Shown here: in pieces, positions 41,874 through 48,086 of the stretch
How positions within the stretch are numbered: position 1 is the stretch's first letter
Layout of the letters: the number at the start of each line of letters is the position of its first letter
Assembly: GCA_035356615.1 (NCBI GenBank)
Contig: DAOQSN010000003.1
Location: 9,835-73,834, forward strand
Source of the DNA: Phycisphaerae bacterium
Lineage (GTDB): Bacteria > Planctomycetota > Phycisphaerae > UBA1845
DNA: 64,000 nt
Reading direction: 5' to 3'
Position numbers and translations under genes: made by a program
Notes under the pieces: model-generated
Told to the model about the DNA's origin: nothing
Databases searched by the model: none
The model's input: only the letters and a program-made list of their open reading frames with translations

Positions 41874-41947
41874 GCGCTGCTAGCTCAATTGGATAGAGCA
41901 TCGGTCTACGGAACCGAAGGTTGGAGGTTCGAATCCTCCGCGGCGCG
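41874..41947 (+). tRNA. tRNA-Arg (anticodon ACG)
   Basis: Manual cloverleaf: acceptor GCGCTGC/GCGGCGC (one G-U pair), D arm GCTC-AATTGGATA-GAGC, anticodon stem TCGGT/ACCGA with loop CTACGGA, T arm GGAGG-TTCGAAT-CCTCC, discriminator G. CCA is not encoded. Confidence 0.85.
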
Positions 41948-43256
41948 TTGCAGTTTCTCCCGCAAAAACCGCGTTTTTCTCGGGGATTCCTGCGATTTCA
42001 CGATTCTTAGTGCCACCCCGTGTCACGCGCCCCGTAGCACCCGATTGCACCGTTTCGCGCCCCAACTGCTGACAGAAGCGCTGACGGTCATCGGTGCCCG
42101 TCGCGGCCAACGCGACCGATTCCCGCCGGTCCAAGTCGGGCAAGCGTTCGACGGCCGTGGCAAGGTCGCCCACCACCACGTGGGTGTACCGGTCCAGCGT
42201 CAAGGCAATCGTCGAATGCCGGGCGAGCTGTTGGGCCACCTTCGGGGCCACGCCGCTTCGCGCCAGGTTCGATATGCACGTGTGCCTCAGTGAGTGAAAG
42301 TCGGCCACACCGTCGGGGGTCCGGTAGGGCACGCCCGCCGCAGCGAGGTCCACCCGGATCATCTTGGACGCCTTGTCTGGCAGTTTCCCGAAAGGCCGGT
42401 ACTGGGGGTCCACCGGGCCGACGATCGTCGCGTGGTGGGCCAGCAGTGCAGCCGTAGCGTGCTTCAGGGGCAAGCTGTCCGTCCGCCGGCTCTTCGCGTA
42501 GGCCGCGCTCACCGTGACCGTCGGGGGGGTTCCGCCCAGGTCGAACGATGCCCAGGTGAGAGAGCGCAGCTCGGACAGGCGCAGGCCGGTTTCGACCGCC
42601 AGTCGGTAGACCAACGCCCTCACCTCACCGGGCATCCCGTAGAACACCGGTCCGGCTTCAGCCGCATGCAGCAGCCGCCGAAGTTCATCGTCCGTCAGCG
42701 CCCTCCGCGCGTGTCTTACGTCGGTCTGGACGTTCCGTACCGCCAGCCCAGCGAGGGGATTCTCCGCGACGCGCCGATCGGCAACCGCCCATCGCGCGAA
42801 GCACGTCAACGCCCGAGCGTAGTGGTGGAGGCTCCGTAGGGATAGGCCGCCGTCACGCAGCTCGGCCAGCACCCGCGTCACCGCCGCCGCCGTCACGTCC
42901 GCCCAGGCGACCAGCTTCCCCACCTCCAGCACCCGCCGCACGCGCGCCACGGACATTGCCGCATGCTTCGGTGTCACGCCACGCGCATGGAGGTCCGCAG
43001 CCCAATCGTCCACGTGCTCCAGTAGGGGCCGCTTGGCGTGCTCTGCCAAACGGTCGGTTCGCGCGTCGCGCAGGCCGCTCTTGTGCTCAAGGGCACGCCG
43101 GACGTGCTCGGCCAGAATGCGCTGTGCCAGTGCCCGATCGGTCGTGCGCGTGGATCGTTCCCGCCGAATACCGCCGTGGTCGAACCAGCACGCCCGCCAG
43201 GGGCCACGGCCGCTACGCCGATAAAGACTGCCCGTTCCGTGGGAGCGTTGCTTCAT
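41880..43256 (-). CDS. int: Tyrosine recombinase / phage-type integrase; its 3' end runs antisense through the tRNA gene
   Basis: HSLRHTCISNLARSG, LARHSTIALTLDRYTHV (H-x-x-R ... H ... Y). The tail ...RRGGFEPPTFGSVDRCSIQLS is the reverse translation of the tRNA. Confidence 0.85.
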   Translation of the reverse strand: MKQRSHGTGSLYRRSGRGPWRACWFDHGGIRRERSTRTTDRALAQRILAEHVRRALEHKSGLRDARTDRLAEHAKRPLLEHVDDWAADLHARGVTPKHAAMSVARVRRVLEVGKLVAWADVTAAAVTRVLAELRDGGLSLRSLHHYARALTCFARWAVADRRVAENPLAGLAVRNVQTDVRHARRALTDDELRRLLHAAEAGPVFYGMPGEVRALVYRLAVETGLRLSELRSLTWASFDLGGTPPTVTVSAAYAKSRRTDSLPLKHATAALLAHHATIVGPVDPQYRPFGKLPDKASKMIRVDLAAAGVPYRTPDGVADFHSLRHTCISNLARSGVAPKVAQQLARHSTIALTLDRYTHVVVGDLATAVERLPDLDRRESVALAATGTDDRQRFCQQLGRETVQSGATGRVTRGGTKNREIAGIPEKNAVFAGETATRRGGFEPPTFGSVDRCSIQLS

Positions 43257-43474
43257 ACGTCACCTCCCCTTTGCTTTCGTCGGGGCAAGCGTACCAGCGT
43301 CAGCCGGTAGCCGAGTGTTGCGGCCAGCCTCTCGGCCGACGCGAGAGACAACCCCCGCTCGCCGGACAGCAGCCGCGACAAGGCGGATTGCTCGATACCA
43401 CCGTCAACCGACAGCCGGTATCGAGTCCGCCCGTCCGCTTGGATCAGCTTCCGAAGATCGTCCAGTAGGTTCAT
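43253..43474 (-). CDS. Small helix-turn-helix (XRE/Cro-like) DNA-binding protein
   Basis: MNLLDDLRKLIQADGRTRYRLSVDGGIEQSALSRLLSGERGLSLASAERLAATLGY. Its stop overlaps the integrase ATG (ATGA). Confidence 0.6.
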   Translation of the reverse strand: MNLLDDLRKLIQADGRTRYRLSVDGGIEQSALSRLLSGERGLSLASAERLAATLGYRLTLVRLPRRKQRGGDV

Positions 43475-43505
43475 GCCGGTACCATACCCCATTGCTTGCC
43501 GCGCG

Positions 43506-46390: not shown

Positions 46391-47065
46391 TTAGTTTCCG
46401 GGTTTCTTTCGGATTTGGCCGAGCTGGGCCAGGGCGGCTTGGCAACGTTCGCGCGTGGCGTTTTCAGTGTTCACGGCCAGCATCGTCTGCACAAGCTTCA
46501 TCGCGTCGCCGGGCGAATAGCAGAAGTTTCGTTGACCGGGCCGGGCCGTCGTCAGGCCAGCTCGTTTCGCATACTTATTCAACGTGTCATTCGTGACGCC
46601 CGTTAGCCCGCGCAGCTCGGGTATGGTGACGCCGGGGCCGTCCGCCACGTCCGCCACCGGGGGCACGTCGGCAGCGGGCGTCGGTTCAGCATGCACGGGG
46701 ACGGGGTCAACCCATCGCAGTACACCGTCTATGGCCAACGCCAGGTCGCGCGGCACGTCGCCGAAACGCTGCCACGCTATGGGGTCCTGCTTGGCCAGCA
46801 GCGCCACCCACCGGCTATCCGTCGCGCACCGCACCGCCTCTTGCAGCACCGACCGCAACGCGGGCGCCTCGCGCTCGGCCATGTAGGCCGCCAGCGCAGG
46901 CACCAGTGCCCCAAGCTGGTTCGCCATCTCCCGGAACGCTTGCACGTCGTCGGGATACGCTTCTGCGGGGCTACGCCCGCGAAGCTCCGCGTAGTTGCGC
47001 TCGGGCAATTCGAGTAAGGCGTCGCGGATCGTCAGCAGCCGGGAGCGAAGATCGTCGGGGGGCAT
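46391..47065 (-). CDS. Hypothetical island protein with C-terminal HTH-like segment
   Basis: ATG at 47065 (MPPDDLRSRLL...). VTIPELRGLTGVTNDTLNKYAKRAGL resembles an HTH. Confidence 0.55.
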   Translation of the reverse strand: MPPDDLRSRLLTIRDALLELPERNYAELRGRSPAEAYPDDVQAFREMANQLGALVPALAAYMAEREAPALRSVLQEAVRCATDSRWVALLAKQDPIAWQRFGDVPRDLALAIDGVLRWVDPVPVHAEPTPAADVPPVADVADGPGVTIPELRGLTGVTNDTLNKYAKRAGLTTARPGQRNFCYSPGDAMKLVQTMLAVNTENATRERCQAALAQLGQIRKKPGN

Positions 47066-47348
47066 GCCACCTATCCTTCGCGGGCCGACCCGGCCGAGCC
47101 CAGGCGATAGGTGTTCCTGGACCCGGCTGGGCCGTTCGCAAGCCGTCGCCTGCTGCCCACCACAGTTTCCGCGTGCGGTCGCCCGCGTCAACACACTTGC
47201 CAAACATTGCCACCGGCGCCCTTAACCTCTTATCTACTTTTCGGTCGCCTTGTTGTTTCAGGGGCCGCCGGTTCCGCCCCTACCGCCAAGCCCGCCGAGC
47301 TGCCGATCGTCGCTTGGCGCGGCCTTTCCGCCTGCGGCCGGGGCATCG

Positions 47349-47573
47349 TCACTCGCCGGCGGGGGCTTGGGCTGCCATTGCGCACGCCCAGTCGCGGGGG
47401 ACACTCCGCAACACGCCGCCCAAGCAGTGTGCATAGGCGCCCGTCCGACGATTGCGGATCAGCATGCCCACCATGGCGTCACGGACCGGATGCTGCACCC
47501 ACCGTCGGATAACTTCGAACCCGTCTGGCACCAACCCGGCCAAGGCCGGGGGTTCCTGCTGAGTCTGAGTCAT
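47349..47573 (-). CDS. Hypothetical small island protein
   Basis: ATG at 47573 lies after GGAGGTGA. 74 codons; no recognisable motif. Confidence 0.45.
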   Translation of the reverse strand: MTQTQQEPPALAGLVPDGFEVIRRWVQHPVRDAMVGMLIRNRRTGAYAHCLGGVLRSVPRDWACAMAAQAPAGE

Positions 47574-48086
47574 CGTGTCACCTCCATTGTTCACTTCCCC
47601 CCCCCATGCCGGGCGAGACACACAATCGCCTCCCGGACGGCCGGGGGCAAGCTCGGCCACGCTTTCACCACCGCCGCAAGCTGGGGGTCCGCCGCTTCCG
47701 TTCGGGGTCCGTCCGGTTCCCGAGGGGGGTCCGCCGGGGCCGGTTTTCTGCGCCCAACTGCTGACAGTTCTGCTGACGCGCGGGCTGGGGGTTTCGTAAG
47801 TCCTTGTCCCGTAACGTCTTGTGGCGCCGGGCATCGGTCTACGGAACCGAAGGTTGGAGGTTCGAATCCTCCGCGGCGCGATTTCAACGGTTTGTGATTG
47901 ACGCGGGTGGATCTCTACGAGGGGTGATTCTGCGCGCAGAGCCGGCGGCCCAGGGGCAGGCTCGCTTGACTCGGGACGCCGGCGGGGAGGCAGTGTGCTG
48001 CCTGGGGTCGGGGGGCGGCCCGCGGGGTACATTCGGACCTGGCGTCACTGCCCGGTGACGGCGGTGGCGGCGGGAGCAGGGACGCT

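What the first reader, a model, noticed from the sequence alone, without database searches (positions are those of the whole stretch)
41874..47880. Compact PrimPol-carrying integrative element in tRNA-Arg(ACG) with satellite-like gene content
Perfect 50-bp direct repeats (the anticodon arm to the 3' end of the tRNA) flank 5.9 kb. The interior contains only a tyrosine integrase, a Cro-like HTH, a PrimPol/DUF3987 replication protein, two AlpA/excisionase-type HTH proteins and two or three small unknowns, all on one strand with overlapping stops and starts. There are no structural, conjugation or lysis genes. Integrase plus AlpA plus primase in about 6 kb is the minimal kit seen in phage satellites (P4-like, PICI-like) and small mobilisable islands. 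I have no evidence on whether such elements have been described in this phylum-level background.
Basis: partly seen in the sequence, partly recalled or inferred. Interest (0 to 1): 0.6.

Follow-up and report, generated by a model that had tools for sequence, protein, structure and literature searches.

The report
tRNA-inserted mini-replicon with split integrase gene
A 5.9-kb mobile element sits in a tRNA-Arg gene of a Phycisphaerae (Planctomycetota) genome, and its attachment site lies inside its own integrase gene, so insertion cuts a conserved tail off the integrase and excision should restore it; this design, known from phage Mx8, turns out to be common across the phylum.

Summary
A genuine tRNA-Arg(ACG) lies at 41874-41947. 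A perfect 50-bp direct repeat (41898-41947 and 47831-47880) brackets a 5,933-bp unit. All genes are on the minus strand: tyrosine integrase, Cro-like HTH, PrimPol/PriCT_1/DUF3987 replicase, HTH_17 excisionase-type protein, two MerR/Xis-like proteins and one unknown. There are no structural, packaging, lysis or conjugation genes.

The integrated int (458 aa) reads antisense through attL and stops in the tRNA D-arm. Its last 79 codons lie at attR, in the same frame. Joining them gives a 532-aa Int ending in a motif (LAAVVKAWPSLPPAVREAIVCLA) that is conserved in contiguous full-length homologues. One of these sits on a 7,474-bp circular relative, and four on unintegrated viral contigs. All 7 small relatives with both ends rebuild an in-frame tail; 6 carry the motif.

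The integrase family has at least 559 copies in Planctomycetota genomes. In 56 of 75 testable loci the int ORF runs into an antisense tRNA gene. Phased arm-type repeats flank the core, and an inverted hexamer array in the replicase gene's 3' end is a likely origin.

The closest precedent is Mx8 Int/IntX. The gene kit matches PICMI-type minimal satellites, but no helper is shown. Verdict: new variant of a known kind, moderate interest.

The parts
41898..47830 (-). One unit of the element (one copy of the core plus interior), 5,933 bp. Genes are on the minus strand.
   Evidence: Repeat spacing of 5,933 bp. Identical in three MAG/metagenome assemblies.
41874..41947 (+). tRNA-Arg(ACG), the functional copy at attL. 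Its 3' 50 nt are supplied by the element.
   Evidence: ARAGORN; Rfam tRNA, 65.9 bits, full length.
41898..41947 (.). attL core: a 50-bp identity block from the anticodon stem to the tRNA 3' end.
   Evidence: Perfect repeat with only 2 copies in the window.
47831..47880 (.). attR core: the displaced chromosomal 3' tRNA fragment.
   Evidence: Rfam scores it 31.8 bits, with the D-arm missing.
41880..43256 (-). int, integrated form (458 aa). It has an arm-binding-like N-terminus, a core-binding domain and a complete catalytic domain. It then reads antisense through the attL core (RRGGFEPPTFGSVDRC) and stops in the tRNA D-arm (...SIQLS*).
   Evidence: PF00589 E 4.6e-17 and phrog_1 E 5.5e-42. Catalytic residues R226, K255, H321, R324, H347 and Y357 are invariant. 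Homologues end the same way.
47591..47830 (-). Split-off 3' end of int: 79 codons plus stop, in the same frame through the core. It encodes the conserved C-terminal motif DPQLAAVVKAWPSLPPAVREAIVCLA.
   Evidence: The reconstituted 532-aa ORF aligns with contiguous full-length homologues; L504, V507, W511 and L514 are invariant. A motif HMM built from independent sequences scores 31.9 bits in frame 0 and <=0.4 in other frames. The last 30 codons have a coding-like GC1/2/3 of 0.77/0.57/0.83.
42061..42086 (.). Candidate arm-type Int-binding site (P arm): two GTCAGC-containing submotifs 11 nt apart, 114-139 nt from the core, inside the int ORF.
   Evidence: Direct repeat D11 with 47753-47778. The same geometry, with element-specific sequence, recurs in the relatives checked, most clearly in L039, L064, L068 and L077.
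47753..47778 (.). Candidate arm-type Int-binding site (P' arm), 53-78 nt from the core on the other side.
43253..43492 (-). Cro-like HTH_3 protein (79 aa). Its stop overlaps the int start (ATGA).
   Evidence: PF01381 E 4.9e-5. Gene call. Overlap. A promoter-like TTGACG-17-TATGGT lies at 43509-43481.
43506..45902 (-). Replicase (798 aa): Prim-Pol + PriCT_1 + DUF3987.
   Evidence: PF09250 E 3.6e-49, PF08708 E 3.5e-14 and PF13148 E 2.4e-63. PHROG primase/helicase families.
43613..43692 (.). Candidate origin of replication: inverted arrays of GGCGAC/GTCGCC hexamers inside the 3' end of the replicase gene.
   Evidence: Inverted repeat I3, 30-nt arms, 83% complementary; sequence. Analogous arrays lie at or near the 3' end of the large replication gene in L006, L028, L068, L077 and L039.
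45899..46117 (-). HTH_17 (AlpA/excisionase-type) protein of 72 aa, the candidate recombination directionality factor.
   Evidence: PF12728 E 6.9e-9. TIGR01764 excisionase domain, E 3.5e-4, below cutoff. Mx8 excisionase Uoi is also HTH_17.
46107..46316 (-). Small MerR/Xis-like protein (69 aa).
   Evidence: phrog_66 E 0.003. Homologues in L026, L077, L086 and L129 next to HTH_17 genes.
46391..47065 (-). 224-aa protein: an orphan helical N-domain plus a C-terminal MerR/TnrA-like winged-HTH domain.
   Evidence: Only a self hit by word-index search. C-terminal residues 145-220 are shared with more than 100 proteins. MerR_1 matches in 9 of 33 members. AF2 pLDDT above 90 for the C-domain; TnrA/GlnR matches.
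47349..47573 (-). 74-aa protein of unknown function.
   Evidence: NCBI gene call. No hit in Pfam, PHROGs, PADLOC or NCBIfam.

Best explanation
This is an intact 5,933-bp integrative, self-replicating element of a family found across Planctomycetota. It is inserted by its own tyrosine integrase into the anticodon-to-3'-end segment of tRNA-Arg(ACG). Its whole attP lies inside the 3' part of the int reading frame, downstream of the catalytic domain. That attP comprises a 50-bp core plus phased arm-type repeats about 115-140 nt on one side and 53-78 nt on the other. Integration therefore splits int. The chromosomal copy makes a catalytically complete 458-aa Int that ends with 5 residues read from the tRNA D-arm. 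The last 79 codons, which encode a conserved two-helix motif, are stranded at attR 5.9 kb away. Excision rejoins them, so only the circular form encodes the 532-aa Int. I infer that this swap biases the reaction: full-length Int drives attP x attB integration, and the truncated prophage form is less active or needs the HTH_17 excisionase-type protein. This is what was reported for Mx8 Int/IntX. Once excised, the PrimPol-PriCT-DUF3987 protein replicates the circle from the inverted GGCGAC hexamer array inside its own gene's 3' end. Shown here: the repeats, the genes, the frame continuity, motif conservation, a circular relative, and family-wide overlap of int with tRNA genes. Inferred: the arm-site and origin functions, the effect of the tail on activity, current mobility, and the route between cells, which probably needs a helper.
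For: The tRNA and the perfect 50-bp repeat are real, and all ORFs are intact with translational coupling. Both att junctions are read in the same frame, giving a 532-aa ORF on circularisation. Contiguous full-length homologues P0026, P0049, P0062 and P0079 carry catalytic domain, antisense-tRNA peptide and the same C-terminal motif in that order; P0103 carries the motif after a short linker without the tRNA peptide. P0049 lies on two independently assembled, circularly permuted contigs with terminal overlaps of 123 and 55 nt. The unit is 7,474 bp, has no tRNA gene, and shows the same gene order. Four unintegrated viral contigs also carry the full-length form. At least 559 relatives occur in Planctomycetota genomes. 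In 58 of 75 testable loci an antisense tRNA gene starts 144-388 nt after the catalytic domain, and in 56 the int ORF runs into it; 20 isoacceptors are used. In all 8 elements with both ends (window + 7), circularisation gives an in-frame extension of 60-81 aa. An HMM built only from natural full-length proteins scores frame 0 at 13-46 bits in 7 of 8, and the five other frames at <=0.4 bits. Phased direct repeats flank the core at conserved distances with element-specific sequence. Inverted hexamer arrays lie at or near the replicase gene's 3' end in 6 elements. In the AF2 model of P0049, residues 1-400 are folded and begin with a three-stranded N-terminal sheet, the 403-505 linker is disordered, and the tail forms two helices with pLDDT of about 76-82. 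The Mx8 precedent is documented.
Against: No excised circle, attP junction or empty attB was found for this particular element. All 12 long contigs carry it integrated. No 532-aa form is in the protein collection. Both metagenome scans returned nothing, apparently because the source sample is not in that collection. The functional effect of losing the tail is untested. The motif is short and sits behind a ~100-aa disordered linker, so it could be dispensable. One relative, L055 from Bremerella cremea, has the in-frame extension but no detectable motif. Open frames are long in 67% GC DNA, so frame continuity in a single element would be weak evidence on its own. Similarity to Mx8 Int is only generic, so the analogy rests on architecture.
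Confidence: 0.78

Rival explanations
1. It is a minimal phage satellite of the PICMI type. A helper phage of the Phycisphaerae host triggers excision through the AlpA/HTH_17 protein. The PrimPol-DUF3987 protein then replicates the circle into concatemers, which are packaged by headful into full-size helper capsids without any satellite-encoded packaging or capsid-remodelling gene. This concerns lifestyle and is compatible with the split-int anatomy.
For: PICMI115 has six genes: int, alpA, a DUF3987 primase, a small gene overlapping int by ATGA, and two unknowns. It has no terS, sid or ppi, and is packaged as 8-mer concatemers. The window element has int PF00589, HTH_17 PF12728, DUF3987 PF13148 and an ATGA-overlapping small gene, in 5.9 kb. 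The same Int family and a DUF3987-int module occur in a genuine 49-kb phage contig with terS and terL (L129). Other viral contigs of 25-68 kb also carry the family, so candidate helpers exist in the phylum.
Against: No helper was identified and no virion-derived copy was found. There is no homology to any hijack, interference or packaging protein in PHROGs, Pfam, PADLOC or NCBIfam. The PICMI model's fourth mandatory marker, fis adjacency, is not met. Int + alpA + primase alone is regarded as unreliable for calling satellites. None of the small IMG/VR contigs checked had terminal repeats.
Confidence: 0.35
2. It is an integrative plasmid (episome) with no dedicated helper. It alternates between the chromosome and a low-copy circle maintained by its own replicase. 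It spreads vertically or by non-specific routes such as vesicles, transformation or generalised transduction.
For: It has a complete replication module and a candidate origin. A relative assembled as a free 7.47-kb circle in two independent assemblies. Cargo varies among relatives, as in cargo-carrying tycheposons. No phage-interaction gene is recognisable.
Against: No partition, toxin-antitoxin or mobilisation (relaxase/oriT) function was detected. A circular assembly is equally expected for an induced satellite. This element carries no evident cargo that would pay for its maintenance.
Confidence: 0.35
3. It is an immobile remnant of a larger prophage or genomic island that has lost its structural genes.
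For: The same Int family is used by islands with no distal repeat within 10 kb and by 25-68 kb viral contigs. No excised form of this copy was seen.
Against: The 50-bp repeats are perfect. Every ORF is intact and tightly coupled. The split int tail is still in frame, with a coding-like codon signature. Seven relatives of 6.0-9.9 kb and a 7.47-kb circle share the same compact layout.
Confidence: 0.07
4. The open frame across attP is incidental read-through in GC-rich DNA. The functional integrase ends soon after the catalytic domain, and the 'C-terminal motif' is not part of Int.
For: The linker is predicted to be disordered, and its codon signature is flat (0.66/0.57/0.62), as expected if the DNA sites rather than the protein are under selection. 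Mx8 has a different tail.
Against: All 8 elements keep the frame across cores derived from 7 different tRNA isoacceptors, and 7 of 8 show the motif only in frame 0. The motif is conserved at the amino-acid level between elements of 54-67% GC. It is also found directly after a short linker in P0103, which has no tRNA peptide. It is predicted as two helices with pLDDT of about 80.
Confidence: 0.08

Closest known systems
Myxococcus phage Mx8 integrase (IntP/IntX) and its attP within int
   Same: attP lies inside the int coding sequence, 3' of the catalytic domain, and the target is a tRNA gene. Mx8 Int (533 aa) also contains an antisense-tRNA peptide (STGLEPV, around aa 416) followed by a tail of about 110 aa. 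Integration gives int a new 3' end without removing catalytic residues. A small HTH_17 excisionase gene (uoi) lies immediately upstream. From memory of Magrini et al. 1999, not re-read here: arm sequences on both sides of the core within int are required, and IntX is the less active form.
   Different: Sequence similarity is only generic for tyrosine recombinases. The Mx8 tail lacks the W..LP..(V/I)(R/K)AGIVAMV motif. Mx8 is a 49.5-kb phage, whereas this is a 5.9-kb element with no virion genes. Here the design characterises a whole integrase family of at least 559 genomic copies in another phylum.
SSV-type 'suicidal' integrases of archaeal viruses and plasmids (SSV1, pTN3, pT26-2; the integrative satellite plasmid pSSVi)
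   Same: The recombination site is carried inside the integrase gene, giving a compact int-att module that is partitioned on integration. From my own knowledge: pSSVi is a small integrative plasmid that depends on a helper virus, and pRN-type plasmids use a PrimPol-helicase replicase.
   Different: In SSV-type enzymes the split separates the N-terminal part from the catalytic domain and inactivates the gene. Their family is PF16795, and the review states that such enzymes are exclusive to archaea. Here the catalytic domain stays whole, Pfam assigns PF00589, and the hosts are bacteria.
PICMI (phage-inducible chromosomal minimalist islands) of Vibrionaceae
   Same: Size is about 6 kb with 6-7 genes. 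It has int (PF00589), an AlpA-type HTH (PF12728) and a DUF3987 primase, plus a small gene overlapping int by ATGA. It has no packaging or capsid-remodelling genes.
   Different: PICMIs integrate next to fis, not in a tRNA gene, and fis is a mandatory marker in their model. PICMI int is not reported to contain attP. Helper dependence is shown for PICMI and is untested here. The host phylum differs.
Tycheposons and 'cryptic' tRNA-targeting elements of marine bacteria
   Same: They have tyrosine recombinases that target tRNA genes and leave partial-tRNA repeats. They carry excisionase and primase/helicase modules and variable cargo. They fall into PICI-like and cargo-carrying types linked by shared integration and replication modules.
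   Different: The family is defined by a set of hallmark genes shared within Prochlorococcus and its relatives, and membership was not tested. No terS or MCP is present here, and a split int is not described for them in the text read.
P4-like satellites and PICIs (SatelliteFinder models)
   Same: They share int + AlpA + a primase/replicase, and a compact one-strand organisation.
   Different: No psu, delta, sid or epsilon (P4) is present, and no terS or capsid-morphogenesis gene (PICI). The element would rate at best as a 'Type C PICI', a class the authors exclude as unreliable. No Planctomycetota satellites are mentioned in that survey (0 occurrences of the term).
Integration-dependent immunity of mycobacteriophages (BPs, Brujita; Broussard et al. 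2013, from memory)
   Same: attP lies inside a coding sequence, so integration truncates the protein and changes its activity or stability. This turns integration itself into a genetic switch.
   Different: There the split gene is the repressor, not the integrase, and the removed tail is a degradation tag.

Membership tests
Mx8-type integrase with attP inside int (C-terminal swap) | The attP core lies within the int ORF, downstream of the catalytic tyrosine. | tested here: met
   The core is translated as RRGGFEPPTFGSVDRC at aa 438-453, and the catalytic Y is at position 357.
Mx8-type integrase with attP inside int (C-terminal swap) | Integration replaces the C-terminus while keeping the catalytic domain. 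| tested here: met
   The forms are 458 aa (…CSIQLS*) and 532 aa (…79-aa tail). The same pair of forms is seen among homologues and in a circular relative.
Mx8-type integrase with attP inside int (C-terminal swap) | Arm sequences on both sides of the core, within int, are needed for attP function. | tested here: inconclusive
   Phased direct repeats sit at conserved distances on both sides, in the window and the relatives checked. Binding and requirement were not tested.
Mx8-type integrase with attP inside int (C-terminal swap) | The prophage-form integrase has altered or lower activity. | not testable with these tools
   This needs recombination assays.
Mx8-type integrase with attP inside int (C-terminal swap) | Specific sequence relatedness to Mx8 Int. 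| tested here: not met
   BLASTP gives only weak local matches (27 bits). tblastn against 50,697 phage records gives no Mx8-specific hit. The resemblance is architectural.
SSV-type suicidal integrases | Integration separates the N-terminal part from the catalytic domain; Phage_integr_3 (PF16795). | tested here: not met
   The catalytic domain is intact in the integrated gene, and Pfam reports PF00589 only.
PICMI satellites | Integrase (PF00589/PF00239/PF07508). | tested here: met
   PF00589, E 4.6e-17.
PICMI satellites | AlpA (PF05930 or PF12728). | tested here: met
   PF12728, E 6.9e-9, 36.3 bits against a cutoff of 27.
PICMI satellites | Primase with DUF3987 (PF13148) or DUF5906. | tested here: met
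   PF13148, E 2.4e-63.
PICMI satellites | Integration adjacent to fis (a mandatory marker of the model). | tested here: not met
   The element is integrated in tRNA-Arg(ACG). The flanking genes are a thioredoxin-like protein and a 107-aa ORF followed by a GH95-like protein.
PICMI satellites | Helper-phage-induced excision, replication and concatemer packaging. | not testable with these tools
   No helper or virion data are available.
P4-like satellites | The psu-delta-sid operon and epsilon, in addition to alpA, alpha and int. | tested here: not met
   No PHROG or Pfam match for any of the small or unknown ORFs.
PICI / cfPICI | A packaging or capsid component (terS, capsid morphogenesis, or the capsid set). 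| tested here: not met
   None detected. Only int + alpA + pri-rep are present, which is 'Type C'.
Integrative conjugative / mobilisable elements | A relaxase, coupling protein or T4SS genes. | tested here: not met
   No such family appears among the Pfam or NCBIfam hits for any ORF of the element.
Tycheposons | Shared hallmark gene set of the Prochlorococcus family (specific YR clade, hel/pri profiles). | not tested
   The profiles are not available here. The similarity is organisational only.

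The most novel reading that the evidence does not exclude
Splitting the integrase gene on integration may be a directionality switch used across Planctomycetota by phages, islands and mini-replicons alike. The conserved C-terminal two-helix hairpin, tethered by a disordered linker that is literally the translation of attP, would be required for (or would license) integrative synapsis. 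It is present only on the excised circle. The chromosomal, tail-less Int would be restrained until an HTH_17 factor or a helper acts. That would make this family a widespread bacterial counterpart of the archaeal 'suicidal' integrases, which a recent review calls exclusive to archaea. It would also extend a mechanism so far known in bacteria from the single phage Mx8.
Probability: 0.4. Interest if true: 0.65.

Novelty: new variant of a known kind. Interest (0 to 1): 0.5.

Why it matters
Mobile elements of Planctomycetota are barely described. This locus gives a precise, testable model with defined core, arm sites, origin, replicase, candidate excisionase and two Int isoforms. It belongs to a family with hundreds of genomic copies that targets at least 20 tRNA isoacceptors.

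There are three practical consequences. First, gene callers and island finders will systematically mis-annotate these integrases: ORFs run into tRNA genes and 'orphan' tail ORFs appear at attR. They can instead use the split tail as an exact marker of the far end of an island. Second, the compact int-attP cassette could serve as an integration tool for genetically difficult Planctomycetota; one family member lies in the cultured Bremerella cremea JCM 17758. Third, if the tail controls directionality, integration-coupled remodelling of a recombinase is a general bacterial strategy rather than an oddity of Mx8. Whether the 6-kb elements are phage satellites would also bear on phage-host ecology in wastewater and sediment Phycisphaerae.

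Tried and rejected
(1) I searched for an empty attB or a circular attP of this element. Even the source contig was not found, so the sample is not in that collection and the result is uninformative.

(2) Exact-protein look-ups of the left flank gene, int and orf224 found 12 long contigs from three assemblies, and all carry the element integrated. A 5,943-nt Logan contig first looked like a circle. It is exactly the 5,883-bp interior plus 30 nt of each repeat, which is the break a k=31 de Bruijn graph makes at a repeat. It is not evidence of excision.

(3) The protein search with the reconstituted 532-aa Int found no 532-aa exact form.

(4) I tested for specific homology to Mx8 Int and rejected it. 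Uoi compared with the window's small HTH proteins gave no BLAST alignment, although Uoi and the 72-aa protein share the HTH_17 family.

(5) Defence-system (PADLOC), NCBIfam, PHROG and Pfam searches of the unknown ORFs found nothing capsid-, packaging-, interference- or defence-related.

(6) orf224 has only a self hit by word-index search. The exhaustive HMMER search showed only a shared C-terminal MerR-like domain. Its AF2 model had no significant whole-chain PDB match.

(7) ARAGORN's second tRNA at attR is not a gene: it scores 31.8 bits and has no D-arm.

(8) There is no GC-content anomaly.

(9) Small IMG/VR contigs carrying the Int family showed no terminal repeats, so they are no evidence for packaged mini-elements.

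(10) Tojo 1996 and Magrini 1999 are not held in the library. Statements about IntX activity rest on a review and on memory.

Full report
**1. Observation.**
ARAGORN finds tRNA-Arg(ACG) at 41874-41947 and a second call at 47805-47881. Rfam scores the first at 65.9 bits over the full model. The second scores only 31.8 bits and lacks a D-arm, so it is the displaced 3' fragment preceded by element DNA. The 50-mer GCATCGGTCTACGGAACCGAAGGTTGGAGGTTCGAATCCTCCGCGGCGCG is perfect at 41898-41947 and 47831-47880. With up to 3 mismatches it has exactly two copies in 64 kb, against none expected. It runs from just 5' of the anticodon stem to the tRNA 3' end, which is the usual footprint of integration centred on the anticodon loop. 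The unit is 5,933 bp. GC content (about 0.67) matches the flanks.

The window is identical to contigs of a Phycisphaerae MAG (GCA_035343535.1), to JGI metagenome 3300025784 and to GCA_029558835.1. All of them carry the element.

**2. Genes.**
All genes are on the minus strand:
- int, 41880-43256 (PF00589)
- a 79-aa HTH_3 Cro-like protein, 43253-43492
- a 798-aa Prim-Pol + PriCT_1 + DUF3987 protein, 43506-45902
- a 72-aa HTH_17 protein, 45899-46117
- a 69-aa weak excisionase-like protein, 46107-46316
- a 224-aa protein, 46391-47065
- a 74-aa unknown, 47349-47573

The stop/start overlaps are ATGA at cro/int and at HTH_17/PrimPol. The 224-aa protein is an orphan in its N-terminal half. Its last ~75 residues form a domain shared with more than 100 proteins, and this domain matches MerR_1 weakly and TnrA/GlnR structurally. 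Nothing matches capsid, terminase, lysis, conjugation, defence or known satellite hijack proteins.

**3. The overlooked feature: attP lies inside int.**
The int ORF does not stop before attL. It reads antisense through the core as RRGGFEPPTFGSVDRC and ends ...SIQLS* in the tRNA D-arm. An ORF at attR (47591-47887) reads the other core copy in the same frame and continues into the element for 79 codons. Joining the two ends as in an excised circle gives a 532-aa ORF.

A search with this sequence found 643 homologous protein clusters. Most of the best 120 run into an antisense-tRNA peptide (GFEPPT, GIRTP, WDSNP and similar) at about aa 440-500, and many stop in the D-arm (...QLS*...CSTN*). A few are contiguous full-length proteins. 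P0026, P0049, P0062 and P0079 carry catalytic domain, variable linker with an antisense-tRNA peptide, and then the same terminal motif. P0103 carries the motif after a short linker with no tRNA peptide. In the alignment the reconstituted window protein shares the motif D(P)xLxxVxxxWxxL(P/S)xx(V/I)(R/K)AGIVAMV, with L504, V507, W511 and L514 invariant.

**4. A free circular relative.**
P0049 lies on two contigs from independent assemblies (7,597 and 7,529 nt). They are circular permutations of each other, have terminal overlaps of 123 and 55 nt, give a unit of 7,474 bp and contain no tRNA gene. The gene order is the same as in the window: unknown (212 aa), HTH_17, small ORF, Zn-ribbon + DUF3987 (814 aa), HTH_17, HTH_3, full-length Int. 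So small elements of this design exist as circles, and in that state int is whole.

**5. Family-wide test.**
The best 80 loci are all Planctomycetota: Phycisphaerae, Pirellulales, Gemmataceae, Isosphaeraceae, Planctomycetaceae, Kuenenia, and the cultured Bremerella cremea JCM 17758.
- Of 75 loci with enough downstream sequence, 58 have an antisense tRNA gene starting 144-388 nt after the catalytic domain. In 56 of those the int ORF runs into it, and 20 isoacceptors are used.
- A distal repeat within 10 kb was found in seven loci, giving element sizes of 6.0-9.9 kb with targets Arg-ACG, Phe, Cys, Arg-TCT, Leu, Thr and Arg-CCT.
- In all eight elements (window + 7), circularisation extends the ORF in frame by 60-81 aa.
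- An HMM built only from eight naturally contiguous proteins scores the in-frame translation at 45.8, 45.4, 44.0, 42.5, 31.9 (window), 16.6 and 13.1 bits. The other five frames score <=0.4. Only the Bremerella element is not detected.
- The last 30 codons in the window have GC1/2/3 of 0.77/0.57/0.83, like the element's genes. The linker is flat at 0.66/0.57/0.62.

The same Int family occurs in IMG/VR viral contigs of 25-68 kb. Four unintegrated ones carry the contiguous full-length form. One of these (L129) is a genuine phage, with a DUF3987 gene before int and terS/terL after it.

**6. attP anatomy.**
A 26-nt imperfect direct repeat lies at 42061-42086 and 47753-47778, each copy holding two GTCAGC submotifs 11 nt apart. 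In the circle these copies flank the core at about -139 and +53. The same arrangement recurs in the relatives checked: a phased tandem repeat 120-175 nt before the core and 49-79 nt after it, with element-specific sequence. It is clearest in L039, L064, L068 and L077. This is the pattern expected for arm-type sites.

It agrees with the AF2 model of P0049. Residues 1-400 are confidently folded, beginning with a three-stranded N-terminal sheet that I read as an arm-binding-type domain, followed by the core-binding and catalytic domains. The linker at residues 403-505 is disordered, and the tail forms two helices with pLDDT of about 76-82. The disordered linker is therefore the translation of attP, and the conserved protein element sits beyond it.

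**7. Replication.**
Within the 3' end of the replicase gene lies an inverted array of GGCGAC/GTCGCC hexamers (43613-43692; 30-nt arms, 83% complementary). The circular relative has GTCACC/GGTGAC arrays at the equivalent place. Four further elements have inverted iteron-like arrays at or just after the 3' end of their large replication gene. I infer that this is the origin recognised by the PrimPol-DUF3987 protein.

**8. Mechanism proposed.**
Shown: the element, its ends, the split gene, motif conservation and a circular relative.

Inferred:
- Full-length Int made from the circle carries out attP x attB integration.
- Integration removes the hairpin and places int in antisense collision with the tRNA gene, giving a restrained, tail-less but catalytically complete Int.
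- Excision uses this form together with the HTH_17 protein, which belongs to the same family as Mx8 excisionase Uoi.
- The circle then replicates from its origin.

How it reaches new cells is open.

**9. Comparison with known systems.**
In Mx8, attP lies within int and integration creates a new 3' end. This is documented in a review and noted by the Islander authors. Mx8 Int is 533 aa, carries an antisense-tRNA peptide at about aa 416 and has a ~110-aa tail, but it lacks this motif and shows only generic similarity.

Archaeal SSV-type integrases also contain their att site. They are split upstream of the catalytic domain and are described as exclusive to archaea.

PICMI satellites share the gene kit and the ATGA-overlapping gene, but they integrate next to fis. 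P4, PICI, cfPICI and PLE markers are absent. A bare int + alpA + primase set is rated unreliable by SatelliteFinder's authors. Tycheposons are organisationally similar.

My literature searches found no description of this integrase design in Planctomycetota. That is absence of evidence in an incomplete library, not proof that none exists.

**10. Verdict.**
The 'satellite-like integrative element' reading is partly supported and its lifestyle is unresolved. The real point of interest is a phylum-wide, Mx8-like integrase family whose gene contains attP and loses a conserved tail on integration. I rate it a new variant of a known kind, with moderate interest.

Noticed in passing
window 48123-48206: Three or more tandem 21-nt units (GATTGCGACGCGGCGTTGGCG) lie inside the 107-aa ORF just right of attR, encoding ...ADCDAAL heptads. 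Across 20.7 kb, the only difference between this window and the GCA_029558835.1 assembly is one 21-nt unit (a 100-aa versus 107-aa product). This is a variable-number tandem repeat in a coding sequence.
   Followed up: partly
window 41205-41300 and 41533-41662: Imperfect short direct and inverted repeats lie upstream of the tRNA: 27-nt units 59 nt apart, and 33-45-nt units at 26/54-nt spacing. Short-read (Logan) contigs break at 41173, next to them. Their function is unknown.
   Followed up: no
window 32470-35197 and 29703-30484: Self-BLAST shows three tandem paralogous units of about 0.9 kb (75-76% identical), corresponding to three adjacent genes for 240-244-aa proteins with no Pfam domain. 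It also shows internal repeats (77-82% identical) within the 1,324-aa Rax2-like protein gene.
   Followed up: no
window 47683-47738: Three direct copies of GGGGTCCG(N)CCG at 21-22-nt spacing lie in the P' arm, between the arm-type repeat and the tail motif. They could be binding sites for an accessory (Xis-like) protein. They also produce the repeated 'DP' peptides in the Int linker.
   Followed up: no
window 43509-43481 (minus strand): A sigma-70-like TTGACG-17-TATGGT sits immediately upstream of, and overlapping, the first ATG of the Cro-like gene. A transcript starting there would begin near the second ATG (43474), which suggests a leaderless cro-int mRNA.
   Followed up: no
L129 4234-6521 and 11559-13846 (IMGVR_UViG_3300036717_000070): In a 49-kb phage contig, a 2.3-kb direct repeat (98.7% identical, 7,325 bp apart) brackets the DUF3987-replicase/full-length-int module, just before terS and terL. 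It could be a mini-element recombined into a related phage (a cointegrate), a duplication, or an assembly artefact.
   Followed up: partly
L024, L029, L048, L058, L063, L069, L084: In seven genome loci the tRNA gene next to the int 3' end is called on the same strand as int rather than antisense; in six of them the int ORF overlaps it. This may reflect integration at the other tRNA end or a strand call by ARAGORN that should be checked.
   Followed up: no
L041 1405-11200; L055 4086-11320 (Bremerella cremea JCM 17758): Small relatives carry different cargo between the far end and the HTH_17/replication module: 1,047-aa plus 530-aa ORFs in L041, and 674-aa plus 363-aa plus 508-aa ORFs in L055. 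These were not annotated here and might be defence or restriction systems.
   Followed up: no
L008 11357-21335 (Logan SRR23287145): P0103 has the tail motif directly after a short linker and no tRNA peptide. Next to it lies an island with a type I restriction-modification system, a TIR-domain protein, an AAA_15/SMC-like ATPase, Mrr_cat and DUF4268 genes. So this Int family also serves a defence island at a non-tRNA site.
   Followed up: no
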